A stretch of DNA of 64,000 bases from a virus. Lineage: Duplodnaviria; Heunggongvirae; Uroviricota; Caudoviricetes. The stretch lies in IMG/VR virus record IMGVR_UViG_3300022660_000042; one strand, written 5' to 3'. Made by a program: the position numbers and the translations under genes. Below the pieces are notes generated by a model. It worked only from the letters and a program-made list of their open reading frames with translations, made no database searches and had not been told where the DNA came from. Of this stretch, positions 4,194-61,715 are shown in pieces (position 1 is the first letter of the stretch; each line of letters starts with the position of its first letter).

Positions 4194-6401
4194 TTAATCC
4201 TCAATACCGAGAAGGTCAGTGTCCTTGTTGAATTCATAAGCATAGATTTCCATTTCGTCATTACCGCGAAGAACGGTAATCTTTTCATAGAAATCATACT
4301 TATATGTCTTTTCTTCTGTAATAATGGAAACTGTCGAGAATTCCTTAATTACATCCTTGAGCAAGTACGGAGAAACATAGTATTCGTTAAGATGCTTAGT
4401 CAACCAGTCTCTCAAGGTAACACGAGCACAACGACAAATTGCACGGGCAACATCCGGGTCATACAATGCGAAGCTGTTTGCAAGAGATACACCGTAAACC
4501 GAGTTAATAATCAACTTCTTGGTCATTTGTCGGTTATGATAAAGATGTGCACCAGCCTTGTCACCATTCTTTTCACATTCCTTTTCCTTATTCTTATATA
4601 TCTTACGTTCTGCAAACACCTGCTTAACAACGTTCGGAAGAATACCATCGTCACGGTTATAGAACCCAAGTTCTGCAACATCCGTCGGAATAACCTCACC
4701 GGATTCAATCTGTTCCTTAGTAGGATGAACAACCTTCAATTCTGGAGAGATATGGAATTCCATAATATGGTGCGGATATGAAGACGTAATATCGAAAGAC
4801 ATACAGTCGTCATGTCGGCCAGGGAAGTCATAACAATAACCGGCTTTTACCTGGAATTCTGGGAATGGATGAGGATCCTTCTTATAAGCATTCCATGCTT
4901 CTATGAAAGCATCTTCAGTTTTCCAATGTTCAAATCGTTTCTGACCAACTATTGACCTAATCGTGGCATAATCGGCTTTTCCTACTTTCTGAGCTTCCTT
5001 ATAGGCATCATAGAAAATCCTGAACTTACAATAATCCTTGTAACGTTTTGCACCAGGTTCCCATTCAGTGTTCTCGAAGTAATCGTTTCCATCCTTATCC
5101 TTGATAATATAGCAACGTTCGTTTCTCCACCAGTCAACATGATGGTCTTCGCGGTCATTAAGCACACGGTTTGTCTTGTGCAAGAACTTCAAGATATAAC
5201 CGGTAGTCGTCGGAACTTTCTGTTCAACCTTATCGAGAGTTACAAGGCAATCGAACGCATATTCAATAATAAGGTCGAAAAGCTTATTCTTTGTTTCCAA
5301 GTCGACCATAATCATAACGTCCTTTCGGTTATACTTCAGGAAGTTATTACCGTCAATCTTGTAGGTTTCAGAAATCGCACCGCTATACTCCAATTTCTGG
5401 TCATTCAATTCGAGGTTGGCCACATAGTTAAGAGAATACGAAGAAAGAGGCGGATGAGATCCGAAGACTTCGTACAGTTTCATGTAGTCAAGCGAATACA
5501 AACCAGGAATGGTATATTTAGTTCCGAGTTCGACATTTTCCATCTTGCGGTCAGTAATCTTTTCCGCAATAGGCATCATGCCAAGAGGAGACAACTGCTT
5601 TTCCCATTCTACCTTTATATCCAGTTTTTCTCTAAGGACTTCACAACGACGCATGATATACGGAATATCGTATGCAAGCGAATTCCAACCTGTAATGATG
5701 TCAAAATGGTTATTGGCGAACCACTTTATCCATTCTCGGATAAGTACCGCTTCTGACTTACAATACGTATAGTTAGGCAAATCCTTAGGGTCATCCGTAT
5801 ATCTGATTGTACTCCAGGTATAAGATTGCTTTGTCTTTGTAGAATAACAAGTAATTGCGTTAATCGGCCATTGTGCTATTTCAGGAGACGGGAAATCATA
5901 GGAAACGAAACAGCTGTCTTCGTACGGAAGATATTTATCAACTTCAATATCATAAACGAAATACTTATCATGGTCAAACTTCATGTCGAAATCAATAAGA
6001 CTAACATCGATAGTCTTATTGGTTTTCTTCTCACAAACTTTAATCAACGTTTCGTCATAATACTTACTGCCAGACGCAACTTCAATATCGAAGAAACAAA
6101 TGTTCCACAAACTCATGTCTACATGGAGTTCTTCGTTATCGTACAGCTGATGCATGTATTTGACTTCAGGACGCAAATTACCTTCACAGACGCCTTTCAG
6201 ACCTATTAACGAATTTCGGTCCTTATAAGGGAACCTTTCCATTGGAGTCTTATGAATATCGGTAAGCTTGCTCTTTTTTGTCTTATCAGGAATGTAGCAC
6301 CAGTTATTGAATTCTACTTCCTTAAATTCAGTATCTTCTTGGGCCTTAAAGTATAACTTTTGTTTCTTAAAGTCCCAATAACAATTTTTAAATCCACTCA
6401 T
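4194..6401 (-). CDS. family-B DNA polymerase, N-terminal subunit (3'-5' exonuclease plus palm motifs A and B)
   Basis: 735 aa; Exo I FFDIEVASGS; motif A SFDITSSYPHHIM (DxxSLYPS-type); motif B KKLIINSVYGVSLANS (KxxxNSxYG). Ends with TAA at 4196..4194. Confidence 0.85.
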   Translation of the reverse strand: MSGFKNCYWDFKKQKLYFKAQEDTEFKEVEFNNWCYIPDKTKKSKLTDIHKTPMERFPYKDRNSLIGLKGVCEGNLRPEVKYMHQLYDNEELHVDMSLWNICFFDIEVASGSKYYDETLIKVCEKKTNKTIDVSLIDFDMKFDHDKYFVYDIEVDKYLPYEDSCFVSYDFPSPEIAQWPINAITCYSTKTKQSYTWSTIRYTDDPKDLPNYTYCKSEAVLIREWIKWFANNHFDIITGWNSLAYDIPYIMRRCEVLREKLDIKVEWEKQLSPLGMMPIAEKITDRKMENVELGTKYTIPGLYSLDYMKLYEVFGSHPPLSSYSLNYVANLELNDQKLEYSGAISETYKIDGNNFLKYNRKDVMIMVDLETKNKLFDLIIEYAFDCLVTLDKVEQKVPTTTGYILKFLHKTNRVLNDREDHHVDWWRNERCYIIKDKDGNDYFENTEWEPGAKRYKDYCKFRIFYDAYKEAQKVGKADYATIRSIVGQKRFEHWKTEDAFIEAWNAYKKDPHPFPEFQVKAGYCYDFPGRHDDCMSFDITSSYPHHIMEFHISPELKVVHPTKEQIESGEVIPTDVAELGFYNRDDGILPNVVKQVFAERKIYKNKEKECEKNGDKAGAHLYHNRQMTKKLIINSVYGVSLANSFALYDPDVARAICRCARVTLRDWLTKHLNEYYVSPYLLKDVIKEFSTVSIITEEKTYKYDFYEKITVLRGNDEMEIYAYEFNKDTDLLGIED

Positions 6402-6409
6402 ATAGTTTA

Positions 6410-6446
6410 AATATAGAAAAAACCTACAAATGATTAAATTTGTAGG
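6410..6446 (-). promoter_or_regulatory. -10 TATATT plus hairpin (CCTACAAAT...ATTTGTAGG) upstream of DNA polymerase
   Basis: Plus-strand AATATA at 6410..6415, 8 nt from the polymerase ATG (6401); hairpin at 6423..6446 followed by a T-run. Confidence 0.45.
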
Positions 6447-6470
6447 TCTTTTTATTCCAAAATTCTTTAA

Positions 6471-6677
6471 TTATGCATTCAACGTCTTGATGAAGGTCTG
6501 CATATCCTGGAAAGCCTGGAGATAGCCGGCCTTGAATTCAGCCTTAGCTTCCGGGACTTCAGTCTTACGGACTTCATCGATCTTTGCGACCACGATTTGC
6601 TTGATTGCACGGAGGTTGTTAACAACAACGTCTTCGGCGTCAACTGCATCATTAAAGTTATTAGCATTAGTCATCAT
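6471..6677 (-). CDS. hypothetical protein
   Basis: 68-aa ORF, co-oriented, in an otherwise noncoding gap. Confidence 0.4.
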   Translation of the reverse strand: MMTNANNFNDAVDAEDVVVNNLRAIKQIVVAKIDEVRKTEVPEAKAEFKAGYLQAFQDMQTFIKTLNA

Positions 6678-8193: not shown

Positions 8194-8238
8194 AATTATA
8201 CCTTATTTATAGAAGTTATTTTTAAAATATAGAAAATT

Positions 8239-8982: not shown

Positions 8983-9292
8983 TTAAATATCCTTCATTAT
9001 TTAAGTTAATTTCAATTTGCTTTCTGTATTTCGATTTTTCTTCAACATCGATTTCCGAGTCGAATCTAAGTTTGAATGGACCAGCAGACAATAACGGCTT
9101 TCCATATTGGATTACAGTATCATTGCCAGAATACAGTACATACCTAAATCGTTTCGTGACATTGCGGAACTTAACGTTTATATAGTTTTCATCTAGCGAT
9201 AAAACAGTATATTCGTTTCCATCAACGCCTTTGTAAGTTTTTCCGACTTCAAATTTCATGTTACACCAATTTGTTCTTTTCGAGGAAAACAC
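8948..9292 (-). CDS. hypothetical protein
   Basis: 114-aa ORF; the real start is probably the internal MKFEVGK. Confidence 0.4.
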   Translation of the reverse strand: MFSSKRTNWCNMKFEVGKTYKGVDGNEYTVLSLDENYINVKFRNVTKRFRYVLYSGNDTVIQYGKPLLSAGPFKLRFDSEIDVEEKSKYRKQIEINLNNEGYLNVFKAHRKEEN

Positions 9293-14084: not shown

Positions 14085-14095
14085 CTGTGATTACA

Positions 14096-14101
14096 AATAT
14101 A
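14096..14101 (-). promoter_or_regulatory. -10 element (TATATT on minus strand) for the 13542..14084 gene
   Basis: Plus-strand AATATA at 14096..14101. Part of a bidirectional promoter region shared with the plus-strand CCA gene. Confidence 0.4.
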
Positions 14102-14144
14102 GTAAATTTTTTATTGCCTATTGAAATGTTTATAAAAATCTGTA

Positions 14145-16103: not shown

Positions 16104-16286
16104 CTATTCTGTGAACCGATATATTATCGCAACCAGTAGAACATTCAGTAAATAGAATTTAAAGAATATTCCTAGGATTGTACGACAACATAAGTCTTTG
16201 CTTGTGGTTCCTATTGAAGATATGACTAAAAAGAAACATTCCAATAGGAACAACGCCGTTCCATATTCAAATATAGTTAAAATCAT
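16104..16286 (-). CDS. small hydrophobic protein
   Basis: 60-aa ORF with two hydrophobic stretches, filling the gap between the kinase and ligase genes. Confidence 0.3.
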   Translation of the reverse strand: MILTIFEYGTALFLLECFFLVISSIGTTSKDLCCRTILGIFFKFYLLNVLLVAIIYRFTE

Positions 16287-22082: not shown

Positions 22083-24011
22083 TTACTTCTTTGTTTCGGA
22101 GAACAAATCAATAAGAGTGTCCTTGCTCAACTGAGTCAAATCAAGTCCAACTTCAGAATCCTTATCGGAATCGTCAACAAATGTAAAGCCTGCTTTTTCA
22201 AGAATCGGCTTCAGGTTGACGAACGAACGACACTTATTCTTGAGGTTTTCAATATACACGTCTGCATATTCATGATTTGGCACACGTCCACCACCTTGAG
22301 TAAGGTCCATGAGGAATACCTTATTGTCTACAATAAGTGCACACTGCTTTTCGCGTTCATTATCAACTGGAATGATAAATTCAGCGAGAACATTGTTCGG
22401 ATCCACCTTTACATCCACACGCTGGCTATAATAAGCATCTTTCTTAAGCTTCTTCTCTTGACGAGCAACGAAGAACTTAAACTGAGACTTAGGAGAACCA
22501 TTGTACTGGTTTACCGATACCTTGCCATCAGGACACTTACAGTCAATGTAGAACAATTCTGTTGCTTCCGGACGAGCTGTAGTCATATCACCCGAGTAAA
22601 TGATCTTATTCTCATGGTCCTTGTAACTTGCGTTCCAACCATAAGTACCTCCATTAATGTCATACATATGAAGGTCAAAATCCTGGGTTCCCCATTCTCC
22701 ACGCCAATAGATACCAACAACGTTGTGGTCGTCGGACATATCAACGGAAGTGCCAAACGGATAATTACCGATGAAGTTCTTTTCAGAAGTCGGCATTGTC
22801 AGATTGACATGCTGAGGATAACGAACAGTACATGCCTTATCCTTGATAGACTTGACCAACGAATCTTCAAGAAGATTGTAGACAACCATCAAGTAGGAAT
22901 TCAATTCCTGATTAGGCACCGGAGCATCCTTACGAACCCACATCTTGCCGTTACGAATTACATACATCTTTCCGCTAGCATTCTGGAGCTTAGCGAGAAT
23001 ACCCTGCATGAGCGTGACCTTCTTGAAATTGGTGATTTCACCCTTTGCAAGACGTTCACGAACTTCGTCCAGCTTCTTGTGTTCAGAAAGTACAGTTTCC
23101 CAGAAACCTGCAGTAAACGGCTTATGGTCAGTAACAGCCAAACGACGGATATGGTTAATAACCGAGGAGTTTGTCTTCTGTCCAACAACAACGGCCTTAA
23201 GCTTTGCTGCGGCCTTTCTGAAAGCTTCATTCTTGAAAACTGCCGGCTTACCGTCAACCTTTTGGTTCTTGAACGCTAAGAATAACGGCTTGAAACGATA
23301 GAAAATCGAAGCGAGAGCGTGTAGCTGCTCATCCGACAACTTCGTAAAGTCGACAGTTTCTGCCTTTTCCTTAATGGCCTTGATAGTCTTTCGGTCCTTG
23401 ATAAGCATGGCGCTGCCAGTTGCCTTAAAGACGAAATAACGTAACATGTTGAACGGGTCCTTGCCGTAGATACCTGTTGCATCCATCAATGCTATGGAAG
23501 CTTCCTTATTCTTGATGGAATCGACGTCGAGTCCATAAGTATTGAAACGCTTATCTTGCGTAATGAAGTTCACAAGGACATTAATGGTTTCAGTTTCAAG
23601 GGCAATCCCGGACTGGAGCATCTTTACACAGCGTGTATAAATTTCCTCGTCAGTCGCAGGCATAATAACCTTGAATGAATTGTACGGAATTTCTACGTCC
23701 GGAGCGTTGTTTGGAATATACGCATCGCCCGTATAATTTGTGCCATAAGTAGAGGCATAATGAAGAAGTTGATCTACCAACAGTTCAAAACGCGTCTTGG
23801 ACGTAATGTCAGACCACTTAGCATAAAACGTCTTATTGTAATTGGTCTTAGCTTCAGCATTCACCCAGTCAAGGGCAAGCTTCGAGCAACAGTCGGGATG
23901 AATAATCCAACCATACTTTGCTGATTCTGCGTTAACCTCTTCAAAAGAGCGCTTAGAGTTACCTTCTGCCTTAGGCATGACATTGAACATTGTAATCAAC
24001 TTAAGATTCAT
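22083..24011 (-). CDS. large hypothetical protein (642 aa)
   Basis: Long uninterrupted ORF with RBS AGGAAAAATT-ATG and an upstream promoter at 24103..24131. No motif I could assign. Confidence 0.6.
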   Translation of the reverse strand: MNLKLITMFNVMPKAEGNSKRSFEEVNAESAKYGWIIHPDCCSKLALDWVNAEAKTNYNKTFYAKWSDITSKTRFELLVDQLLHYASTYGTNYTGDAYIPNNAPDVEIPYNSFKVIMPATDEEIYTRCVKMLQSGIALETETINVLVNFITQDKRFNTYGLDVDSIKNKEASIALMDATGIYGKDPFNMLRYFVFKATGSAMLIKDRKTIKAIKEKAETVDFTKLSDEQLHALASIFYRFKPLFLAFKNQKVDGKPAVFKNEAFRKAAAKLKAVVVGQKTNSSVINHIRRLAVTDHKPFTAGFWETVLSEHKKLDEVRERLAKGEITNFKKVTLMQGILAKLQNASGKMYVIRNGKMWVRKDAPVPNQELNSYLMVVYNLLEDSLVKSIKDKACTVRYPQHVNLTMPTSEKNFIGNYPFGTSVDMSDDHNVVGIYWRGEWGTQDFDLHMYDINGGTYGWNASYKDHENKIIYSGDMTTARPEATELFYIDCKCPDGKVSVNQYNGSPKSQFKFFVARQEKKLKKDAYYSQRVDVKVDPNNVLAEFIIPVDNEREKQCALIVDNKVFLMDLTQGGGRVPNHEYADVYIENLKNKCRSFVNLKPILEKAGFTFVDDSDKDSEVGLDLTQLSKDTLIDLFSETKK

Positions 24012-24102
24012 AATTTTTCCTCATTAAAAGTGTTAAAGCGAGAAGTAAGTATTTTGCCTAAATTATAATGATATAGGAACATCCTTTGCTTTAACGGTGT
24101 TA

Positions 24103-24131
24103 AATATAGTAAATTGTTTGTGTTTTGTAAA
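24103..24131 (-). promoter_or_regulatory. sigma70-type promoter TTTACA-17-TATATT for the 22083..24011 gene
   Basis: Plus-strand AATATA at 24103..24108 and TGTAAA at 24126..24131, 17-nt spacer. Confidence 0.55.
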
Positions 24132-24139
24132 CCCTATTT

Positions 24140-24307
24140 TTAAAGGTTTTTTAATGCTTTTTTCCAAGCCTTTACTTTCTTCTTGGATTCTTTGCTCAGT
24201 TTTAATCCGAAAATATCCATTAGTGCATTGGCAGTATCAACACCTGCCAAACGACTTTCGAGTTCTTTCTTCTTTAACGAATTTTCCGTTTCCAATGAAC
24301 TTCCCAT
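24140..24307 (-). CDS. small basic hypothetical protein (55 aa, possibly leaderless)
   Basis: ATG at 24307 lies 8 nt downstream of the -10 of the promoter at 24316..24344. The track ORF start at 24325 would sit inside the promoter. Confidence 0.35.
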   Translation of the reverse strand: MGSSLETENSLKKKELESRLAGVDTANALMDIFGLKLSKESKKKVKAWKKALKNL

Positions 24308-24315
24308 ACATGTAT

Positions 24316-24344
24316 AATATAGCAAGTGTATTTTATTTTGTAAA
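24316..24344 (-). promoter_or_regulatory. sigma70-type promoter TTTACA-17-TATATT
   Basis: Plus-strand AATATA at 24316..24321 and TGTAAA at 24339..24344, 17-nt spacer. Confidence 0.55.
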
Positions 24345-24356
24345 CCCCTAAATATA

Positions 24357-24388
24357 AAAAAGTAGAGCCGGTTGACTCTACTTTTAAA
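24357..24388. terminator. rho-independent terminator hairpin
   Basis: AAAAGTAGAG-ccggttga-CTCTACTTTT inverted repeat with flanking A- and T-runs, downstream of the patatin gene. Confidence 0.65.
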
Positions 24389-24402
24389 TTAAAACCCGAA
24401 TA

Positions 24403-25272
24403 TTATCGATTTTTTACAAAATCTAAAATATCCTTTTTAACTGATTCGTAGTAGTCATCCCAGATTTTCATAACTAAATTAATAGTTTTATCTGATACAT
24501 CATCCATTTTTATCTTTTTTGTATAATTCGGAGATGCATTGAAAACATACTTATCGCCGAGAATGGCTTGTGCTTCATAAATTGGTGATTTTGAACTTCT
24601 TGCTACCCAATCTCCAATCATATATTCTGCCCATCCTAACAATGTTTTATTTCCATGTTCTGTATTTGGTGTATTCATTCCAGTATTAAAATTTAAAAGT
24701 TTAAGATTTCGATTGCCTTGTTTAAATTGACCAGCAATAACTATATCGGCAGGGTTATTTGCCCAACAGCCACCGTCCATATAAGAGTTTCCATCTTTTT
24801 CTATAACATCAAAATATGTAGGTGCTGCTGTTGATGTAAGTACAGCAAATGCCTTTGTTGTATCTTTATCACCTAAATCCCACACTTTTTCTACAGAAGC
24901 ACCATTCATAAATGTTGTTGTAATATAGATAGGTTTTTTCCAATCACTAACTTTACCTTTAAGTTTTTCTTCTAAAATTTTTTTAAGATTTGTATTATCA
25001 TATGTTGGACACGTTGGTTTAAGTCGTTTATACCAGGAATTTTTTGTAAAAATTTTCTTTAAATTATCTTGGTATAATTTAAATATATCATGTGCACTCA
25101 TACCTTCATTCATACATGCAGCAACTATTGAACCCGTAGAAGTACCAGTATATGCTGATACATAATCACCTAATTTTTTACCTAGATCTTGTTCCAATCT
25201 GCACATAAATGCTAAAGGTCCCATAGCCAAGGCTCCACCACCTTCAATACTTAAACACAATTGTTTGCCCAT
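24403..25272 (-). CDS. patatin-like phospholipase
   Basis: Oxyanion-hole GGGALAMG (GGGxxG) near the N-terminus and nucleophile elbow GTSTGS (GxSxG); DGG near the end of the domain. Confidence 0.8.
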   Translation of the reverse strand: MGKQLCLSIEGGGALAMGPLAFMCRLEQDLGKKLGDYVSAYTGTSTGSIVAACMNEGMSAHDIFKLYQDNLKKIFTKNSWYKRLKPTCPTYDNTNLKKILEEKLKGKVSDWKKPIYITTTFMNGASVEKVWDLGDKDTTKAFAVLTSTAAPTYFDVIEKDGNSYMDGGCWANNPADIVIAGQFKQGNRNLKLLNFNTGMNTPNTEHGNKTLLGWAEYMIGDWVARSSKSPIYEAQAILGDKYVFNASPNYTKKIKMDDVSDKTINLVMKIWDDYYESVKKDILDFVKNR

Positions 25273-25303
25273 AAAATTCTCCTAATATAATTTTATATTA
25301 TAT

Positions 25304-25822
25304 TTATATAATTATATTATTCCGAATTTTTTCTATAAGTATATCCAACTCTTTTCTTTTTAAAATAATAACATTATTTTTTATCATGCATTCTTGTTTT
25401 TCCAGTTGTAATTCTTTTGTAAATGGATTTATTAATTGATTATTATCATTAAAGAAAAAATCTCCTTTAACTTCATAAAATTTACCATTTATAATAAAAT
25501 CTGGCTTATATTTATGTTCTTGTTCTTCTTTAATATAAGTAAACGTAATTTTTGGATGATATTCAAACACATTCTTACTGGACTGTAATGCTTCATATAA
25601 TTCATATTCCCAGTGAGAATCGAAATATATATCATTATAATAAAAACCATATACTGTATGTGATTGTGTATTTGGATTTTGACCGGGATTTTTATAACCA
25701 GTTTTTTCATAATATGTTTGCTGACATTTAGCAAATGATTCAGGATTCGACCAATTATGGTAATACCCTGTTTTTCTAAAATATTCTTCAGAACGTTGTT
25801 TTAAATGTTCTGGATTTTTCAT
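25304..25822 (-). CDS. repeat-containing protein (tandem ~23-aa YFxKTGYYHNWSNPES repeats); same frame as upstream ORF across a single TAA
   Basis: Repeats continue upstream of the annotated ATG through 25823..25927 with no stop until the TAA at 25930..25928. Confidence 0.5.
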   Translation of the reverse strand: MKNPEHLKQRSEEYFRKTGYYHNWSNPESFAKCQQTYYEKTGYKNPGQNPNTQSHTVYGFYYNDIYFDSHWEYELYEALQSSKNVFEYHPKITFTYIKEEQEHKYKPDFIINGKFYEVKGDFFFNDNNQLINPFTKELQLEKQECMIKNNVIILKRKELDILIEKIRNNIII

Positions 25823-25927
25823 ATTATGAGTATAACCAGTTTCTTTAAAATATGTATCTATACATTTTTGTCGTGAATCTGGATTAGACCAATTATGATA
25901 ATATCCGGTTCTTTGAAAATATGTATT

Positions 25928-26260
25928 TTATGTTCGAAGCCTAACATCTTGTTTCCATTCATCAGTATGAGAATGCCATGTTTCTGATGCAGATAATTTT
26001 GCTTCTTCACTTTGTCTTGCACACAATGTACAACAATAACGTCTATAACCGTATGTAAAATTTATAAATTTTGTTTCTTTACCACAATTTTTACAAATAT
26101 TTTCATCAGGTTCTTTTAAATATTTATCATAATATTCACGAGAATGTATATTGTGCTTAACTAATAAATGTGTAGAAATTCCCAATGATTTTATTTGTTT
26201 ATGACAGAATTTACATTCTATTATATCATGTCTTACTATATTAAATTTACTTATACTCAT
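25928..26260 (-). CDS. zinc-ribbon protein
   Basis: Two CxxC pairs (CKFCHK...CKNCGK) plus CCTLCARQ; 110 aa. Confidence 0.5.
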   Translation of the reverse strand: MSISKFNIVRHDIIECKFCHKQIKSLGISTHLLVKHNIHSREYYDKYLKEPDENICKNCGKETKFINFTYGYRRYCCTLCARQSEEAKLSASETWHSHTDEWKQDVRLRT

Positions 26261-26403
26261 TAAAAAACTCCTACCTAATTCTTGCCCAATTAGATAGGAG
26301 ATAATACGATAACGTATTTTTCAAATTTTTCTACTATTAAAAGGGCAAGTTTTAATAATACTTATATAGTATTTATAATATTTGCCCGTTTTATTTTGTA
26401 ATA

Positions 26404-26883
26404 TTACGCTAAATTTTTCAATAATGCGGTTTCAATCTCGAAATCACTCATGGCCTTTTTATATTCAAAACTATCTTCATGTCCAGAAAGTCTCGAATAT
26501 GGAACTCCCATAGAATCCCAGATTTTATGCTGCATAACTATCCAGCCATACGCAGCATAAAAATTTTCCCATCTATTAAGAAATTCAATCAGCTCATTTA
26601 GCTTAGATTTTGTCAGCCATTCCAACATTTTAAAGACATTATCTTTATAGTCAAAAATCATTATTGAACATCTGTCTTTAATGGGCATAAGAGTACATGC
26701 GACCATAATTTCAAACTTTTCATCATCTTCGTACCAACTGAATTCAACCTCAAATCGATTATCCTTATCGCGAAGACAAATACTATCATGGGTTTTAGAA
26801 GTATTTACCCTCATGTAATAATCATTCGGTTTAATCCGAAGAATATAGTTTTGAAAATGTTGGAATGTATATGCTTCAGACAT
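26404..26883 (-). CDS. hypothetical protein
   Basis: 159-aa ORF. Confidence 0.5.
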   Translation of the reverse strand: MSEAYTFQHFQNYILRIKPNDYYMRVNTSKTHDSICLRDKDNRFEVEFSWYEDDEKFEIMVACTLMPIKDRCSIMIFDYKDNVFKMLEWLTKSKLNELIEFLNRWENFYAAYGWIVMQHKIWDSMGVPYSRLSGHEDSFEYKKAMSDFEIETALLKNLA

Positions 26884-26970
26884 TAATTCTTACCTAAAAG
26901 CTTATTAAAAGCATTTACAAGCTTACTGATTTCACCTTCATCGCTTGTAGGTTCATAATCAATACTTGTA

Positions 26971-27330
26971 TCATAAACCACGCGACGCTGAACTGGGGGC
27001 TTTCTTCATTTTTTCCTTATGTTCATTCATAAGTTTTTCAGCAAGTTCATATGACGGAATATAAGAACCAACATCCCATGAAGCATCTTTTGAACAAATA
27101 TGAGGTTTAGATTCTTCTTTCCAAATATGACTATCACGGTATCTTAAATATCGTTCCATATTATAGGTCAAGCGAAACCAATTCTTCGAACCGCTATTTA
27201 TCTTACGATATTCAACAACAAACCATGACGGGTCTCTGTTTACAATACTTGGAGCAACATCAAAATCGAACGTCGGATATTCATATGTACCGAGTTCTAT
27301 AATACGATATTCATAAAGCGATTTTTCCAT
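26971..27330 (-). CDS. hypothetical protein
   Basis: 119-aa ORF. Confidence 0.45.
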   Translation of the reverse strand: MEKSLYEYRIIELGTYEYPTFDFDVAPSIVNRDPSWFVVEYRKINSGSKNWFRLTYNMERYLRYRDSHIWKEESKPHICSKDASWDVGSYIPSYELAEKLMNEHKEKMKKAPSSASRGL

Positions 27331-28484
27331 TAGAACACATATCCTTCACGAGATTTACCGGTTGTAACATTACGCAAGATAGTCGGAATAATTTCACCAG
27401 CCTTCGTAATAATAACTTCATGACCGATTTCGATGCCCATATATTCAAGCATGTCAATATTGCACATATTTGCACGCTGAACTGTAGTTCCGCAAAGTTC
27501 AACAGGTTCAACTACTGCAACCGGAGTCAAATTGCCATTCTTGATAGACCATTCAATGTTAATGAGCTTGGTCTGAGCAAGAGAATACTTCGGCTTGAGT
27601 GCAATCGAGAATTCCGGCAAATAATTGGTTTCAAGATCTTCATAATCAATCAAAGACGTCTTCCAAACAAGACCGTCAATCTGATAATCACGTTCTTCAT
27701 GCCAAATCTGGTCCATAAGAGCGACAGCCTTTTCACCGTTCATGGTTTTAAGGTCGTAAATCTTGTAGTCAACAACATCAAAACCCTGGTTTTTCATCCA
27801 ATCAAGCATATCAGACTGAAGTCGGAAATGACGCTTGGTGTTAGAGGCATAGCGAGCTTCATAAACCTTGATATTAAGCTTTTCACAATCTGCACCGTCG
27901 AGATGCTTCATAATACCAGAAGCAGCATTTCGGCAGTTCTTATACTTCGGGAAATACTTTTCCTTAACGGACTTGTAAAGCAAAATTTCGCCGCGAATAG
28001 TTCCTGTAAAATCCTTATCGACTTTCTTGACGAGACCATTCATCTTAAGAATATTATTGGTAATGTCGTCACCGTATGTACCATCACCACGGGTAGTACC
28101 CTGAACGAACTTTCCATCGACGTATTTAAGCGCAATAGAGCAGCCATCGAGCTTCAAAGGAGCAACGACATATTCATGACCATTCATACGGCACTTATTG
28201 AACCAGACATCCATTTCTGGAGCCGTATTGGCCTTATTCTGAGAACCCATGATAATATCATGCTTGACTTTTTCAAAACCTTCAGTATGGTCCTTACCAA
28301 CTTCCTTCAAAACATCAGAATCAGGATATTTAGTCTTCAGTTCATCCCAGAGTGCATCAAATTCAATGTCGCTCATGATAGGAGAATCGGAATTATAATA
28401 GGCATCTTGTGCCTGACGGATTTTTGCTTCAAGTTCGTTCTTATTCATGTGATACAATATAGTAAAAAATATAGGCTTTGTCAA
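27330..28484 (-). CDS. ligA: NAD-dependent DNA ligase (LigA-type adenylation domain, compact phage form)
   Basis: N-terminal LigA-like opener AQDAYYNSDSPIMSDIEFDALWDEL; adenylation lysine motif KLDGCSIALKYVDGKFVQGTTRGDG (compare LigA [25 protein letters not shown]). Confidence 0.85.
   Translation of the reverse strand: MTKPIFFTILYHMNKNELEAKIRQAQDAYYNSDSPIMSDIEFDALWDELKTKYPDSDVLKEVGKDHTEGFEKVKHDIIMGSQNKANTAPEMDVWFNKCRMNGHEYVVAPLKLDGCSIALKYVDGKFVQGTTRGDGTYGDDITNNILKMNGLVKKVDKDFTGTIRGEILLYKSVKEKYFPKYKNCRNAASGIMKHLDGADCEKLNIKVYEARYASNTKRHFRLQSDMLDWMKNQGFDVVDYKIYDLKTMNGEKAVALMDQIWHEERDYQIDGLVWKTSLIDYEDLETNYLPEFSIALKPKYSLAQTKLINIEWSIKNGNLTPVAVVEPVELCGTTVQRANMCNIDMLEYMGIEIGHEVIITKAGEIIPTILRNVTTGKSREGYVF
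28456..28484 (-). promoter_or_regulatory. sigma70-type promoter TTGACA-17-TATATT embedded in hairpin
   Basis: Plus-strand AATATA at 28456..28461, TGTCAA at 28479..28484, and hairpin TATAGGctttgtcaaCCTATA at 28470..28490. Confidence 0.55.
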
Positions 28485-37296: not shown

Positions 37297-37358
37297 AATA
37301 TTGCAAATATAGTAAATATTTTTTAACCAATTTTATTTTGTCTTACAAACTTCTGAAA

Positions 37359-41128: not shown

Positions 41129-41169
41129 GTCCTCAAATATAGGTAAAAATAATTTTTTAGTTTTATGCT

Positions 41170-51439: not shown

Positions 51440-51838
51440 TTACCCAGGTAATTTGTCGATTGCTTCTTTCACTTCGGCTTCTTTAATTGCTAAACAATAC
51501 TTTCTGTAATATTCTAAAAAGTCTTCTTTAGATTCGTCATCTACATAATGCATTATAACCGCTGGAAGAAGAGTCATTTCATCACTGCAAATTTTAAAAC
51601 TCTGCTCAAGATTTATTATCTCCAGCAATGTACAAAAATTATTAGTCTTTGCAGATTCAATAGCTGCATTTTCCGGCGCAGTTACAACAATATTTCCATC
51701 AATGTAAAATTTTACTAATTCTTTATAAAGATTACTAACTTCACATGTAATAACTTTGCATTTGGCAAAATTTAAACACGTGTATTTATTAGTACCAGGT
51801 GAAGAATGTAGTAACAGCATATTAATCCAGCTTTTCAA
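51440..51838 (-). CDS. hypothetical protein, array family Y (copy 2)
   Basis: 132 aa ending ...KLPG. Confidence 0.5.
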   Translation of the reverse strand: MKSWINMLLLHSSPGTNKYTCLNFAKCKVITCEVSNLYKELVKFYIDGNIVVTAPENAAIESAKTNNFCTLLEIINLEQSFKICSDEMTLLPAVIMHYVDDESKEDFLEYYRKYCLAIKEAEVKEAIDKLPG

Positions 51839-52415
51839 TGCATTTCAATGTTTCCATATCTTGACGTGCCATATAGCATACGCCAGTTCTGTAACGTTCT
51901 GAATTCTGGTTTTTACGTACTTCTTCCAATTCGTTGAGCAAATTGAAGAAAATATCCTTCAATTCTTTCGGGCTGTCGACACGTACATGACAACGAGGAC
52001 GTGCATTCATAGCGCTAATCATAACATTTCGCTGTGCTTCCCAATCATCGCTATATGCATTGTTGTACATGGTATCGTCGAATGTCGCACGCATAGTTAC
52101 ATAGTAACGGCCGGTTTTCTTCTTGTTGTTACTGGCCATATCGATATGGTGCTTAATTCCGTCTTTTCCCTTTTGAACAATAAACGGAACACGGTTTGAT
52201 TCAAAATTGAAAACAGAAAAACCGATAATGGAATATCCATATTCAGCAAACATGGTTTCAAAATGCTTAAGCTGATTTTCATAGATCTCTTGGAGTTCTA
52301 TGCTTCTACGACGCTTGGAGTCGATAGCATGCTTAATATGCTCGATTTGTTCAAGCATTTTGTTTTCGTCTTTTGTAACTGCGGCATTTACTGCTTCTAA
52401 GAAATTTTTATACAT
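51822..52415 (-). CDS. hypothetical protein, array family X (copy 3)
   Basis: 197 aa; paralog of X1 and X2. Confidence 0.5.
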   Translation of the reverse strand: MYKNFLEAVNAAVTKDENKMLEQIEHIKHAIDSKRRRSIELQEIYENQLKHFETMFAEYGYSIIGFSVFNFESNRVPFIVQKGKDGIKHHIDMASNNKKKTGRYYVTMRATFDDTMYNNAYSDDWEAQRNVMISAMNARPRCHVRVDSPKELKDIFFNLLNELEEVRKNQNSERYRTGVCYMARQDMETLKCIEKLD

Positions 52416-52421
52416 GACTAT

Positions 52422-52452
52422 AATATAATAAAAAGGCTGACTTTCGTCAACC
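52422..52452 (-). promoter_or_regulatory. sigma70-type promoter TTGACG-17-TATATT inside GAAA-tetraloop hairpin plus T-run (drives the X/Y array)
   Basis: Plus-strand AATATA at 52422..52427, CGTCAA at 52445..52450, hairpin AGGCTGACtttcGTCAACCT at 52433..52452 followed by a T6 run. Confidence 0.6.
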
Positions 52453-52478
52453 TTTTTTATTTTAACTATTACAGTGTG

Positions 52479-53795
52479 TTAATCTTGTTTCAAAGTTACA
52501 TTAATTTCATAACCCTTACCGTACTTATAGTTAGGAATATACTTAGTAATGAATTCTTCGAAATATTCCTTATTTTCCGGATAAGTAAGGTTATAAGTAT
52601 TACCGTCCATATCTTCTTCAGCTAGGTCGTAATTCAATTCTTTACTACAGAACTTAGTCCAGTTTTCCGGAGTTCCTGTAATCTTGAGAGCCCAGGTTCT
52701 TTCGGAATATGTGGTAAAGTAAGTAATATAGTTGGAATTTTCACCATATGGACCATAGTGACCCCAGTCTGCAACCGGTTCTTCATCAACATCCTGAGAA
52801 ACAGTAGCTTGTGTATGCTGTTCGGAAACATTCAAACCGAAATCGGCAAAGAAATCCTTGATAGCAGCAGTATCTACCCATGTCCAAGATTTACTAGAAT
52901 CAAAATCGGCCTTTCTGTGAATCATACCAATGGTAGTGCTACCCATTTGTTGAGCATCCTTACCGAGTGCATTAGCTTCAGCACGTTTTTTCATAGCACG
53001 CTGAAGCATTTCCTTACGGGTTTCAGCAGTCTCCTTCGGAGCTTCTTCACCCTTCTTAGGTCTGTAATCTTCAAGACCATAGGCCTTTGCATTCATGTGA
53101 TATGTTCTACGGCCTTCCGGTGTACGATTGTCCGCAGCCTTTGTCGTTTCGTGCTTAATGTAAGTATTGACAATAAGAGTAATTTCGTTAGTTGCTTCGT
53201 TGAGAACCGCTTCATAGCCTAGACGCTTGAGGGTTTCAAGTGCTTCTTCAACTTTGTTTTTACCCTTATCAGACTTCTTAGACTTAAACGCAAACCACTT
53301 GGACTTCTTGTTTTTCTTCTTACCTCCACAGCAGCAACTTTCGTTTTCGAGGTTCGTTTCTGGATCCACATAGGAATCATCTTCGAGACCTGTTTGCTGT
53401 TCGTCCTGGACTGCCTGTTCTGGAGTACCGAACATCTTAACGAATTCATCATAAGAAGTTTCATTGAACCATACCGGAATTTCAGTATCGTTCATTTCCG
53501 CCTTCCAAAGTTCATCGTCACCGTCAAACGGATAATTGAGGTCCTGTAAACCATTTACCGGCAATGCGTCATGCCAAAGAGTATACTGGTCATCTTTACC
53601 GCCGAGTGCTTCGTATTCTTCGAACCAATCATTACCGGTCTTTCCGGAATTATCACAAGAACCGTCAGCACAAGAACCGTCGCCGCATTCATTTATGAAA
53701 TTATTGCGGAAAGCACGGAATTCATTCCTGAACTTGAATTCTGCAGGAAGTGAATCTAAATGTTGTTCATCGTGAGAATACATTAACACCTCCAA
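52479..53795 (-). CDS. hypothetical protein (acidic N-terminus, CCCGGKKKNKKSK basic patch)
   Basis: 438-aa ORF. Confidence 0.5.
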   Translation of the reverse strand: MEVLMYSHDEQHLDSLPAEFKFRNEFRAFRNNFINECGDGSCADGSCDNSGKTGNDWFEEYEALGGKDDQYTLWHDALPVNGLQDLNYPFDGDDELWKAEMNDTEIPVWFNETSYDEFVKMFGTPEQAVQDEQQTGLEDDSYVDPETNLENESCCCGGKKKNKKSKWFAFKSKKSDKGKNKVEEALETLKRLGYEAVLNEATNEITLIVNTYIKHETTKAADNRTPEGRRTYHMNAKAYGLEDYRPKKGEEAPKETAETRKEMLQRAMKKRAEANALGKDAQQMGSTTIGMIHRKADFDSSKSWTWVDTAAIKDFFADFGLNVSEQHTQATVSQDVDEEPVADWGHYGPYGENSNYITYFTTYSERTWALKITGTPENWTKFCSKELNYDLAEEDMDGNTYNLTYPENKEYFEEFITKYIPNYKYGKGYEINVTLKQD

Positions 53796-60383: not shown

Positions 60384-60935
60384 TTATTTATCTTCTAAGT
60401 TCTGTAACTGCAATTCGATAGTTTCGTAATCGAATGTGCAAGCAAAAGTACAAATATCCGAAGTACCATATTCAAGAGAGACATTTTGAAGGTTAGTCAA
60501 AATTGCATGCTTGAATTTCATCTTTGACTGAATCTTATTGTCATTGTTTAACGAAACGATTTCAATGGCGTCGATACAGTCCATACGTAAAAGTTCTTCG
60601 CCTTTAAGGCTCTTCTTTCCGCAAGTTTCACCATGACGCATAGCGTCAATCCAACAATAGAAATAATAAAAATTCTTTAACTCTTCATCAAGCTTGAATT
60701 CGACAGTAATAGACTGGAGTTCACGAGCACCAATCGGATTCGGGTGCAACTGACGTTCATGCATATACATGGAAGTAAGCATGGGAATAGACAAATCCGG
60801 AATACTGACCGAGCGAACATAGTTGTCAAGAATATGAGTATCTAAGTCGATACCTGTAAAATTAACAAGATTCGAGAATCGCACCACGAATTTGTTTTTA
60901 TTAAAATCATTAATACTGGTTGTAATTCCTGCCAT
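60384..60935 (-). CDS. hypothetical protein
   Basis: 183-aa ORF. Confidence 0.5.
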   Translation of the reverse strand: MAGITTSINDFNKNKFVVRFSNLVNFTGIDLDTHILDNYVRSVSIPDLSIPMLTSMYMHERQLHPNPIGARELQSITVEFKLDEELKNFYYFYCWIDAMRHGETCGKKSLKGEELLRMDCIDAIEIVSLNNDNKIQSKMKFKHAILTNLQNVSLEYGTSDICTFACTFDYETIELQLQNLEDK

Positions 60936-60966
60936 AATTATCCTCTGATTATATTTATAAACGAAA

Positions 60967-60995
60967 AAATCACCCCTCCAGGAAGGGTGATTTTT
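60967..60995. terminator. rho-independent terminator hairpin
   Basis: AATCACCC-ctccaggaa-GGGTGATT followed by TTTT. Confidence 0.55.
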
Positions 60996-61010
60996 GGAAA
61001 TGAATAAAAA

Positions 61011-61715
61011 TTACTTATTACTTACAGAAGTATCAACCTTGGAAGTATTTGCGAAGTTGTAAATAAATCCGTATGGTGCTTTCTTCTTAATAAGCGTTGT
61101 TAAGCGGCTAATAAACTTCTTAAAGAAATTTTCTCCTGCTCCAGAAATAGTCAACTTAATGAAGTCTTGTTTTTCATCGCCTTCGATTAAATCAACGTTT
61201 ATTTTAACAGGATTGTCTTCCTTATCAAGATTTTCCAAATAATTATCGGAAATTACCTGAATTGCTTCCTTAAGATTCTGTTCGATTTTTTGAACAACAA
61301 CGCCCCTAAGTTTTTCATTAGAGAAATCAAAACCAGTTTCTTTTTCGGCTTCAAGAATAATACTATCCAAATCTAAACCAAAAGCTTCAGAAACATTAAT
61401 TTCGATAAGTTTGATGTTGGAAAAACTTTTAATCTTATTGATAATTTCAGTATATTTTTTATTTGCACCAGCCTTATCAAATTCGCCTTCCGGTGTCTGC
61501 ATATTACCAAGGGATTCAATAGCTTGCTTAATATTTGACTTATTGATAGCAACTTTATAGACAAAATTACGGCTGTTCATTTCCTTAACTTTGTCCTGCT
61601 TATCCTGTTCGTCTTTTTCTGCCTGTGCAATGTCGAATTTATCTTTTGCAATCTTTGCAACACGATCGAAAAGTTTTTGTGCTTTAAAAACGGATGCTTC
61701 AAATAAATTTGTCAT
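61011..61715 (-). CDS. hypothetical protein
   Basis: 234-aa ORF; ATGA overlap with the upstream gene. Confidence 0.5.
   Translation of the reverse strand: MTNLFEASVFKAQKLFDRVAKIAKDKFDIAQAEKDEQDKQDKVKEMNSRNFVYKVAINKSNIKQAIESLGNMQTPEGEFDKAGANKKYTEIINKIKSFSNIKLIEINVSEAFGLDLDSIILEAEKETGFDFSNEKLRGVVVQKIEQNLKEAIQVISDNYLENLDKEDNPVKINVDLIEGDEKQDFIKLTISGAGENFFKKFISRLTTLIKKKAPYGFIYNFANTSKVDTSVSNK

What the first reader, a model, noticed from the sequence alone, without database searches (positions are those of the whole stretch)
25304..26260. Zinc-ribbon ORF and repeat-protein ORF are one reading frame interrupted by a single TAA; the tandem repeats run through the supposed intergenic gap
ORFs 25928..26260 and 25304..25822 are in the same frame; 957 nt total, and the 105-nt gap is divisible by 3. 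The only stop is the TAA at 25930..25928. The 35 codons between that TAA and the annotated ATG are open and encode two further copies of the ~23-aa repeat (TYFQRTGYYHNWSNPDSRQKCID, TYFKETGYTHNMKNPEH...) that continues into the downstream ORF (YFRKTGYYHNWSNPES, YYEKTGYKNPG). The annotated ATG lies inside repeat 2. This implies either a recent nonsense mutation splitting a 318-aa zinc-ribbon plus repeat protein, or programmed stop-codon readthrough or suppression. The DNA repeats at 25751..25785 and 25888..25925 are also visible directly.
Basis: seen in the sequence. Interest (0 to 1): 0.6.

Follow-up and report, generated by a model that had tools for sequence, protein, structure and literature searches.

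The report
Homing endonuclease gene broken by nonsense mutation
The two ORFs are the halves of one selfish mobile nuclease gene (a free-standing homing endonuclease) of an uncultured giant phage, cut in two by a recent single-base CAA-to-TAA change; this is the ordinary decay expected of such genes, not a recoding signal.

Summary
Window 25304..26260 (- strand) is one 957-nt frame with a single TAA at 25930..25928, and a 69-nt (23-aa) repeat runs through the supposed gap. The cause is simple. Four close relatives (95-99% nt identity) carry CAA (Gln) at that codon, so the window has a C-to-T nonsense transition (G-to-A at + strand 25930).

The ancestral 318-aa protein has two zinc-binding modules, four DUF7487 helical repeats and a C-terminal PD-(D/E)XK nuclease domain. 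It behaves as a free-standing homing endonuclease gene. It is a 1.13-kb cassette between a 159-aa gene and a patatin gene, absent from that site in one related phage, and 95% identical in a phage whose flanking genes are only 54-76% identical.

The nonsense allele is real: its exact products occur on 28 contigs from three sources, up to 412 kb. It is also very recent: 12-13 nt from the nearest intact alleles, with no private missense change. Another lineage has independently deleted the nuclease domain.

Recoding is not supported. TAA ends 66 of 81 ORFs in the window, relatives have sense codons at the site, no tRNA lies in the window, and the downstream ATG is an ancestral internal Met with no ribosome-binding site. 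Verdict: an ordinary decaying homing endonuclease gene, of low interest.

The parts
25304..26260 (-). Ancestral 318-codon homing-endonuclease reading frame (zinc modules + DUF7487 repeats + PD-(D/E)XK nuclease), now interrupted at codon 111
   Evidence: The fused translation passes the Pfam DUF7487 cut-off and hits phrog_3339 'homing endonuclease' at 5.6e-14. Intact orthologues P0001, P0002 and P0003 are 318-319 aa.
25928..25930 (-). Nonsense codon TAA (codon 111). It derives from CAA (Gln) by a C-to-T change, which is G-to-A at + strand position 25930.
   Evidence: L001, L002, L003, L004, L019 and L020 all have CAA here. It is one of only six sites private to the window.
25928..26260 (-). Upstream ORF of 110 aa. 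It holds a C2H2-like zinc finger (C16, C19, H31, H36; about 26215..26153) and a CxxC...CxxC zinc ribbon (C56, C59, C76, C80; about 26095..26021). It ends inside the first repeat helix.
   Evidence: weak zf-BED and zinc-ribbon matches. (C56, C59, C76 and C80 invariant). (model helix 100-118 spans the stop). AGGAG lies 7 nt upstream of the ATG.
25661..25927 (-). Four 23-aa DUF7487 repeats (residues 112-200; TYFxxTGYxHNxxNPxxxxxxxx), each one helix plus a loop. The DNA period is 69 nt.
   Evidence: copies at 25693-25922, spacing 69. (helices 100-118, 127-141, 150-164 and 173-187, period 23). (DUF7487).
25823..25927 (-). The 'intergenic gap': 35 open codons encoding repeat 1 and the first half of repeat 2. 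This is coding sequence of the ancestral gene, not a spacer.
   Evidence: Relatives are 95-99% identical here and read straight through.
25304..25822 (-). Downstream ORF of 172 aa, starting at the ancestral internal Met147. It has no Shine-Dalgarno sequence and contains repeats 2b-4 and the whole nuclease domain. It is probably not translated, or only weakly.
   Evidence: upstream AAACTGGTTATACTCATAAT, no SD. (Met147 is also present in the intact P0001-P0003).
25361..25648 (-). PD-(D/E)XK (restriction-endonuclease-like) nuclease domain. The putative catalytic residues are intact: E218 (25609..25607), D254 (25501..25499), E263 (25474..25472) and K265 (25468..25466).
26268..26300 (-). 13-bp RNA hairpin followed by a U-run. 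Its 3' arm contains the gene's AGGAG ribosome-binding site. It is a likely terminator and translational-repression element.
   Evidence: terminator-like site. (an 81-nt segment holding this and a smaller adjacent hairpin: -21 kcal/mol, z -4.4, 0 of 200 shuffles as stable). The same sequence is present upstream of the gene in L002.
25267..26402 (-). The mobile cassette (about 1.13 kb): upstream hairpins plus the endonuclease ORF, inserted between the stop codon of the 159-aa gene (26404..26883) and the patatin start (25272).
   Evidence: homology to the empty-site locus L010 stops at window 26403 and resumes at 25266..

Best explanation
Window 25304..26260 (- strand) is a free-standing homing endonuclease gene (HEG) of an uncultured megaphage of about 400 kb. 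The intact gene encodes a 318-aa protein. Its N-terminal zinc finger and zinc ribbon, together with four DUF7487 helical repeats, presumably recognise DNA. Its C-terminal PD-(D/E)XK domain cuts DNA.

In the window's lineage a single C-to-T transition turned Gln111 (CAA) into TAA. Translation from the gene's only good ribosome-binding site now ends after 110 residues. The product is a zinc-module fragment with no repeats and no nuclease. The downstream 172-codon ORF is the untranslated or barely translated remainder, and it still looks perfect because the mutation is very recent.

This is the degeneration step of the usual HEG life cycle: invasion, fixation, decay, loss.

Shown here: the mutation, its polarity, its recurrence in many assemblies, the domain composition, presence/absence at the locus, and a second independent lesion in another lineage. 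Inferred: that the protein is a site-specific homing nuclease, and that the downstream part is no longer made.
For: Mutation and polarity: codon 111 is CAA in L001, L002, L003, L004, L019 and L020, and TAA only in the window and the identical L007. P0003, at 61% identity, has Lys there.

Real allele: the exact 110-aa and 172-aa products each occur on 28 contigs (JGI, ENA, Logan), longest 412,546 bp, in 45 index blocks.

Recent: the nearest intact alleles differ at 12-13 of 957 nt. The window-private changes are 5 synonymous, 1 nonsense and 0 missense.

The intact gene is functional in relatives: dN/dS is 0.04-0.11.

Mobility: L010 has the 159-aa gene and patatin 54 nt apart with no HEG, and a different DUF7487 endonuclease beyond patatin. 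In L002 the HEG is 95% identical while ligase is 54% and patatin 76%.

Independent decay: L021 and L022 keep Gln111 but have deleted window 25627..25312, the nuclease domain.

No restart signal: there is no SD before ATG 25822, while this gene and patatin both have AGGAG. Met147 is ancestral.

An RBS-sequestering hairpin like those of T4 HEGs is present (PMC2988022). The decay cycle and the defunct I-TevIII are documented in PMC2988022 and PMC2790892.
Against: No missense change has accumulated downstream of the stop. There are 4 private synonymous and 0 missense changes, and only about 18% of random changes there would be synonymous, giving P of about 0.001 if all four post-dated the stop. 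So either the stop is the latest event on the branch or the downstream part is still under selection. The data cannot separate these.

The nonsense allele is the most frequently assembled allele, found on long, well-covered contigs. A hitch-hiking null allele can do this, but so can a tolerated or favoured functional variant.

Nuclease activity, target site and homing have not been demonstrated for any member of this family. Only 64 kb of a genome of about 412 kb could be searched for tRNAs.
Confidence: 0.85

Rival explanations
1. Functional two-piece gene. After the stop, the 110-aa zinc-module protein and the 172-aa repeat-plus-nuclease protein are both made, the latter by reinitiation or internal initiation at ATG 25822. 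They act separately or re-associate, for example as a nuclease with relaxed specificity plus a DNA-binding competitor.
For: The downstream ORF is complete, its catalytic residues are intact, and it has no private missense change. The allele is widespread. The family is modular: the same N-terminal module is joined to a different nuclease in L010, and P0024 is a chimera with its junction near residue 105.
Against: ATG 25822 lies 105 nt after the stop and has no SD, while neighbouring genes use AGGAG. The Met is ancestral and internal to repeat 2, not newly evolved. The stop falls inside a predicted helix (100-118), and the restart falls in the loop that follows repeat helix 127-141, so the array is cut at arbitrary points and repeats 1-2a would be lost. 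No relative shows a split arrangement with its own RBS. The lack of decay is explained equally well by recency.
Confidence: 0.07
2. Programmed TAA readthrough or tRNA-mediated suppression. A low level of full-length endonuclease is made by reading TAA as an amino acid, possibly through a suppressor tRNA encoded elsewhere in the megaphage genome. This would throttle a toxic nuclease.
For: TAA and CAA differ by one base, and Gln is the residue that typical suppressors insert. Megaphages related by this gene family (Lak phages) are known to recode TAG with suppressor tRNAs. No missense change lies downstream. Most of the genome could not be scanned.
Against: TAA terminates 66 of 81 ORFs in the window, and the standard code gives 87% coding density, so TAA is the main stop and an efficient suppressor would be costly. 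The stop is not conserved in any relative. No nearby sequence change accompanies it: the flanks are identical to intact alleles. No tRNA lies in the window, and none relevant lies in related loci. Downstream RNA structure is weak, z -1.9. The other long-gap same-frame pairs in the window do not look like split genes. The phage recoding surveyed in the literature I read involves TAG and TGA, and the standard-code relatives of recoded phages strongly prefer TAA as their stop. From general knowledge, UAA is the least leaky stop in bacteria.
Confidence: 0.05
3. Sequencing or assembly error: the true sequence has CAA and the gene is intact.
For: A single-base difference is the kind of change an error could make.
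Against: The identical truncated products were called on 28 contigs from three independent repositories, 24 of them in blocks whose contigs are 0.2-1 Mb. L007, from a different assembly, is 100% identical to the window over 5,073 nt including the TAA.
Confidence: 0.01

Closest known systems
Free-standing homing endonuclease genes of T4-like phages (seg and mob genes; the defunct I-TevIII of T4)
   Same: An intergenic cassette between conserved genes. Sporadic presence or absence among related phages. Much higher similarity of the cassette than of its flanks across genomes. A hairpin that sequesters the ribosome-binding site. Copies inactivated by truncation or deletion. (PMC2988022, PMC2790892.)
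   Different: The nuclease fold is PD-(D/E)XK rather than GIY-YIG or HNH. The DNA-binding part is zinc modules plus DUF7487 repeats. The host genome is an uncultured megaphage. Cleavage and homing have not been demonstrated.
PD-(D/E)XK homing endonucleases (I-Ssp6803I; the Vsr-like I-Bth0305I, PDB 3r3p)
Pfam DUF7487 (PF24308) proteins of phages and large viruses
   Same: The reconstructed protein passes the family's gathering score. 20 of the 21 homologues found carry it.
   Different: The family has no described function, and no paper in the searchable library mentions it. In the window the domain is split by the stop, so neither ORF reaches the cut-off alone.
T7 endonuclease I (Pfam Phage_endo_I, PF05367)
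   Same: Best sequence-level match of the C-terminal domain (residues 67-128 of the 172-aa ORF to profile positions 15-76). The acidic/Lys catalytic motif has the same order.
   Different: The score of 24.6 bits is below the 29.1 cut-off. T7 endo I is a small domain-swapped junction resolvase without zinc modules or repeats.
Stop-codon recoding and suppressor tRNAs in gut phages (TAG to Gln in Lak and crAss-like phages, TGA to Trp in others)
   Same: An in-frame stop at a position where relatives have Gln. Megaphage context with distant Lak-phage homologues of the gene.
   Different: The codon is TAA, which is this genome's main terminator (66 of 81). There is a single occurrence. No suppressor tRNA was found in the sequence available. 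The standard code gives a normal gene density.

Membership tests
Pfam DUF7487 (PF24308) | Whole-protein score at or above the curated gathering score (27 bits) | tested here: met
   The fused translation scores 35 bits, and the matched stretch 64-161 spans the stop. The 172-aa ORF alone scores 24.1 bits (below the cut-off), and the 110-aa ORF has no match. Intact relatives carry a precomputed PF24308 annotation.
PD-(D/E)XK (restriction-endonuclease-like) nucleases | Conserved acidic and Lys catalytic residues in the order E ... (P)D ... (D/E)xK | tested here: met
   E218, P253-D254 and E263-V-K265 are present. D254 is invariant, and E218, E263 and K265 are at least 90% conserved across 19 homologues down to about 26% identity.
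PD-(D/E)XK (restriction-endonuclease-like) nucleases | Alpha-beta-beta-beta-alpha-beta core fold | tested here: met
Pfam Phage_endo_I (PF05367, T7 endonuclease I) | Score at or above the gathering score (29.1 bits) | tested here: not met
   24.6 bits for the 172-aa ORF and 23.2 bits for the fused protein. It is related at superfamily level only.
Free-standing homing endonuclease gene | Presence/absence polymorphism at a conserved locus in related genomes | tested here: met
   L010 has ligase, p119, the 159-aa gene and patatin in order, with a 54-nt spacer and no HEG. The window, L001, L005, L006, L007, L020 and L021 have the HEG there.
Free-standing homing endonuclease gene | Evidence of lateral transfer: the cassette is more similar than its flanks | tested here: met
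   Window versus L002: HEG 95% aa identity, patatin 76%, ligase 54%. L002 has a different set of upstream genes, but the HEG's 140-nt leader is retained.
Free-standing homing endonuclease gene | Site-specific cleavage of the HEG-less allele and gene conversion into it | not testable with these tools
   This needs in vitro cleavage of the L010-type junction of the 159-aa and patatin genes, or mixed-infection crosses.
Programmed stop-codon readthrough | The stop codon is conserved at the same position in homologues | tested here: not met
   All intact relatives have CAA (Gln) or AAA (Lys).
Stop-codon reassignment (alternative genetic code) | The reassigned codon is avoided as a terminator and occurs in-frame in many genes | tested here: not met
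   TAA ends 66 of 81 ORFs of at least 100 aa. The standard code gives 87% coverage. Treating TAA as sense merely fuses neighbouring genes.
Stop-codon reassignment (alternative genetic code) | A suppressor tRNA with a matching anticodon is encoded by the phage | tested here: inconclusive
   There are no tRNA genes in the 64-kb window. In 18 related loci there is only one, a tRNA-Gly.

The most novel reading that the evidence does not exclude
The TAA is tolerated because it is functional. Either a megaphage-encoded ochre suppressor tRNA somewhere in the unseen ~350 kb, or low natural readthrough, yields a trickle of full-length nuclease, so the stop acts as an expression throttle on a toxic homing endonuclease. 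Alternatively the two halves work as a split enzyme. The only positive hints are the complete absence of missense change downstream of the stop and the dominance of this allele among assemblies.
Probability: 0.06. Interest if true: 0.55.

Novelty: new member of a known kind. Interest (0 to 1): 0.15.

Why it matters
There are three practical consequences.

Annotation: the two ORFs should be annotated as one disrupted gene (a pseudogene) rather than as two hypothetical proteins. The 105-nt gap is not regulatory DNA.

Biology: this is a clean natural snapshot of the homing-endonuclease life cycle in a megaphage population. Intact, nonsense, nuclease-deleted, chimeric and empty-site alleles of one locus all coexist in public metagenomes.

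Family function: it gives the uncharacterised Pfam family DUF7487 a plausible role as a repeat-type DNA-recognition module of phage homing endonucleases, joined to interchangeable nuclease domains.

None of this is surprising to a specialist, and it does not bear on genetic-code evolution.

Tried and rejected
- Megablast of 24000-27500 against deposited phages gave no match. tblastn of the fused protein gave only a weak partial hit (36% over residues 55-155) in Lak megaphages. The 642-aa neighbour hits only distant cyanophage and gut-phage proteins at 24-30%. No cultured relative is available for comparison.
- Allele counting by exact DNA pattern (GTTARGCKTCGAAYAYAAAATACATATTTTCAAA) gave 0 hits in IMG/VR and 1 hit in JGI metagenome contigs, the already known intact AUXO012865875.1. 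The counts therefore rest on the exact-protein look-up.
- L008 (P0039, a diverged 172-aa variant) might have shown an older TAA lineage. However, its first ~20 nt do not align with the gene, which looks like a contig-end artefact, so it tells us nothing.
- L023 (P0026, 122 aa) shows a frameshift, but it is a 973-nt chimeric contig that runs into unrelated GC-rich sequence. I did not count it as an independent lesion.
- TRF found no tandem repeat in the gene because the copies are too diverged. The repeat finder did find them.
- I looked for a readthrough-stimulating RNA structure after the TAA and found only a weak fold, z -1.9.
- I checked the other same-frame single-stop pairs with long gaps (60384-61715 and 51822-53795) as possible further TAA-split genes. 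Their gap translations look non-coding, and the downstream ORF of the first pair (60384..60935) has its own SD; the other does not. I did not pursue them.
- Whole-window recoding under TAG, TGA or TAA as sense codons gives no gain for TAG or TGA, and TAA as sense only fuses genes.
- A literature search for DUF7487 returned nothing.

Full report
**1. The observation**

On the - strand, window 26260..25304 is a single 957-nt reading frame. Its only internal stop is TAA at 25930..25928. The ORF finder lists the halves as 25928..26260 (110 aa) and 25304..25822 (172 aa).

The 35 codons between the TAA and the next ATG are open. They encode one and a half further copies of a 23-residue repeat (TYFxxTGYxHNxxNP...) that continues into the downstream ORF, and the ATG (Met147) lies inside repeat 2. 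At the DNA level the repeat appears as three in-register 92-nt copies spaced 69 nt apart, covering 25693-25922 and therefore crossing the supposed intergenic gap.

Frame continuity on its own is not remarkable, though. The window holds 13 same-frame ORF pairs separated by one stop. The repeat continuity and the homology are what make this pair one gene.

**2. What the gene is**

*Family matches.* The fused translation reaches Pfam DUF7487 at 35 bits (cut-off 27), and the aligned stretch 64-161 spans the stop. Neither half reaches the cut-off alone. It also matches PHROG 3339, 'homing endonuclease', at 5.6e-14, again across the stop. The C-terminal part matches endonuclease families: phrog_945 at 1e-7, and Pfam Phage_endo_I at 24.6 bits, which is below that family's cut-off.

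*Conserved residues.* In alignments of homologues down to about 25% identity, four cysteines of a zinc ribbon are invariant (C56, C59, C76, C80). So is a classical PD-(D/E)XK set: E218, P253-D254 and E263-x-K265.

*Structure.* An AlphaFold model of the intact relative P0001 (mean pLDDT 87) shows four parts:
- a small beta-beta-alpha zinc finger;
- a zinc ribbon;
- four helices with a 23-residue period (100-118, 127-141, 150-164, 173-187);
- a C-terminal alpha/beta domain.

The ancestral protein is therefore a 318-aa modular nuclease made of DNA-binding zinc modules, DUF7487 repeats and a PD-(D/E)XK catalytic domain.

**3. Relatives are intact, and the stop is one transition**

The large protein database holds single-ORF relatives of 318-319 aa at 98%, 95% and 61% identity (P0001-P0003). 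They have Gln, Gln and Lys at the stop position.

Their DNA was fetched and aligned. At column 331 the window has T and all four close relatives have C, so CAA became TAA. On the + strand this is G-to-A at 25930.

Further cluster members (P0034, P0036, P0037, P0038) have exactly the window's local context, VRLRT-Q-NTYFQR, with Gln intact. Two of them, at the DNA level (L019, L020), differ from the window at only 12 and 13 of 957 positions, 9-10 of them synonymous.

Pairwise dN/dS among alleles is 0.04-0.11, so the intact gene is under strong purifying selection. Polarised against four intact alleles, the window's private changes are five synonymous, one nonsense and no missense.

**4. The allele is real and common**

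The exact 110-aa and 172-aa sequences are each recorded on 28 contigs from JGI/IMG, ENA and Logan, the longest 412,546 bp. The index lists the 110-aa product in 45 blocks, 24 of which hold contigs of 0.2-1 Mb.

An independent assembly (L007) is 100% identical to the window over 5,073 nt, including the TAA. Assembly error is excluded.

The neighbouring proteins are the same in all the places read. This looks like one successful, nearly clonal phage strain carrying the broken gene.

**5. The gene is a mobile cassette**

I used the neighbouring patatin gene as an anchor and scored the neighbourhood by tblastn.

*Occupied sites.* The order ligase, p119, 159-aa gene, this gene, patatin, 642-aa gene is kept in L001, L005, L006, L007, L020 and L021.

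*Empty site.* In L010 the 159-aa gene is followed by patatin after 54 nt, with no room for the gene. A different endonuclease sits downstream of patatin. It has a similar zinc-finger and DUF7487 front end but a Vsr-like C-terminal domain. DNA homology between L010 and the window stops at 26403 and resumes at 25266, which defines a cassette of about 1.13 kb.

*Lateral transfer.* In L002 the cassette, including its 140-nt leader, is about 95% identical to the window's, although the ligase is only 54% and patatin 76% identical and the upstream gene set is different.

Sporadic distribution, together with a cassette that is more similar than its flanks, is the signature of a free-standing homing endonuclease gene.

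*Regulation.* The cassette's ribosome-binding site (AGGAG) forms the 3' arm of a 13-bp hairpin followed by a U-run at 26300..26268. An 81-nt segment holding this and a smaller adjacent hairpin folds at -21 kcal/mol, z -4.4. This arrangement is documented for I-TevI, I-TevII, I-TevIII, segB and mobE in T-even phages (PMC2988022).

**6. Independent decay elsewhere**

L021 and L022 (two runs, SRR25322291 and SRR25322292) carry an allele that keeps Gln111. It has lost window 25627..25312, the whole nuclease domain, leaving a 211-aa product that ends 20 nt before patatin.

P0024 is a chimera. Residues 1-105 are identical to the window's allele and the rest is P0003-like.

Intact, nonsense, nuclease-deleted, recombinant and empty alleles of this one locus therefore coexist. 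This is what the cyclical model of homing endonuclease gain, degeneration and loss predicts (reviewed in PMC2988022; the defunct I-TevIII is described in PMC2790892).

**7. Rival readings**

*(a) Recoding or suppression.*
- TAA ends 66 of the 81 ORFs of at least 100 aa in the window.
- The standard code gives 87% coding coverage, nearly all on one strand. Making TAA a sense codon only fuses neighbouring genes.
- No tRNA gene lies in the window. In about 170 kb of related loci there is only one, a tRNA-Gly.
- The RNA after the stop is only weakly structured, z -1.9.
- The stop is absent from every relative.
- The survey of gut-phage recoding that I read describes TAG and TGA reassignment. It notes that standard-code relatives of recoded phages strongly prefer TAA as their stop.

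I could not scan the remaining roughly 350 kb of the genome, so a suppressor tRNA is not strictly excluded.

*(b) A functional split with reinitiation.*
- ATG 25822 is 105 nt beyond the stop and has no Shine-Dalgarno sequence, whereas this gene and patatin both have AGGAG.
- The ATG is an ancestral internal Met, present in the intact alleles.
- The stop falls inside a predicted helix, and the ATG falls in the loop just after the next repeat helix.

*The one observation that keeps (a) and (b) alive.* No missense change has accumulated downstream of the stop. There are four private synonymous changes and no missense changes, and only about 18% of random changes there would be synonymous. This is explained equally well if the nonsense mutation is the most recent event on the branch, which fits the near-clonality of the contigs that carry it.

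*(c) Assembly error* is excluded (section 4).

**8. Verdict**

The finding is a correctly observed nonsense-split gene, and the explanation is ordinary. A free-standing homing endonuclease gene of an uncultured megaphage acquired a CAA-to-TAA mutation very recently and is at the start of its decay.

The gene belongs to an uncharacterised family (DUF7487, no literature found), but its kind is well known. The annotation should be a single disrupted gene.

Confidence in this explanation is about 0.85, and interest is low.

Noticed in passing
window 26268-26300 (- strand); also L002 about 9230-9275: A 13-bp hairpin plus U-run whose 3' arm is the AGGAG ribosome-binding site of the endonuclease gene. 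An 81-nt segment holding it and a smaller adjacent hairpin folds at -21 kcal/mol, z -4.4. It resembles the RBS-sequestering hairpins of the T4 homing endonuclease genes. The 61%-identical allele in L005 has different upstream hairpins that do not cover its RBS.
   Followed up: partly
L021 3001-3636 and L022 127-762 (equivalent to window 25627..25312 missing): An independent lesion of the same gene in another lineage. Gln111 is intact but about 316 nt encoding the whole PD-(D/E)XK domain are deleted, giving a 211-aa product that ends 20 nt before patatin.
   Followed up: yes
L010 4947-5000 and about 5975-6650: An empty site: the 159-aa gene and patatin are 54 nt apart. A different endonuclease gene lies downstream of patatin. 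Its front end is a similar zinc finger plus DUF7487 repeats (34% identity over 131 aa), but it is joined to a Vsr/DUF559-like nuclease domain. This points to module shuffling within the family.
   Followed up: partly
protein P0024 (and P0023), relatives of window 25304-26260: A chimeric allele. Residues 1-105 are identical to the window's protein and the remainder is of the 61%-identity P0003 type. The recombination junction lies just upstream of the position of the window's stop codon.
   Followed up: no
L002 9063-9140: The divergent phage L002 lacks the 159-aa gene. It retains two short fragments of it (matching window 26639-26585 and 26423-26404) directly abutting the endonuclease cassette. 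This suggests the cassette arrived with flanking DNA (co-conversion) or that the neighbour gene was later deleted.
   Followed up: partly
window, e.g. 6409-6416, 8225-8232, 14095-14102, 16269-16276, 24102-24109, 28467-28474, 37305-37312, 41135-41142 (- strand): The motif CTATATTT occurs 15 times against 6.0 expected (0 of 100 shuffles reach 15). Twelve copies are on the coding strand, and many lie within about 20 nt upstream of start codons that lack an SD. Several extend to TATATTTG, which from memory resembles the Bacteroidota -7 promoter element TAnnTTTG. This may be a phage or host promoter giving short-leader mRNAs, and a hint about the host.
   Followed up: partly
window 24403-25272 (patatin) versus neighbours: The patatin-like phospholipase next to the cassette is clearly more diverged between related phages (71-76% aa) than the other neighbours (83-93%). 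This could reflect fast evolution or repeated co-conversion next to the endonuclease insertion site.
   Followed up: no
window 51822-53795 and 60384-61715 (- strand): Two other same-frame ORF pairs separated by a single TAA and an open gap of 21-25 codons. The gap translations look non-coding, and the downstream ORF of 60384-61715 has its own SD; that of 51822-53795 does not. They are probably just adjacent genes, but orthologues were not checked.
   Followed up: partly
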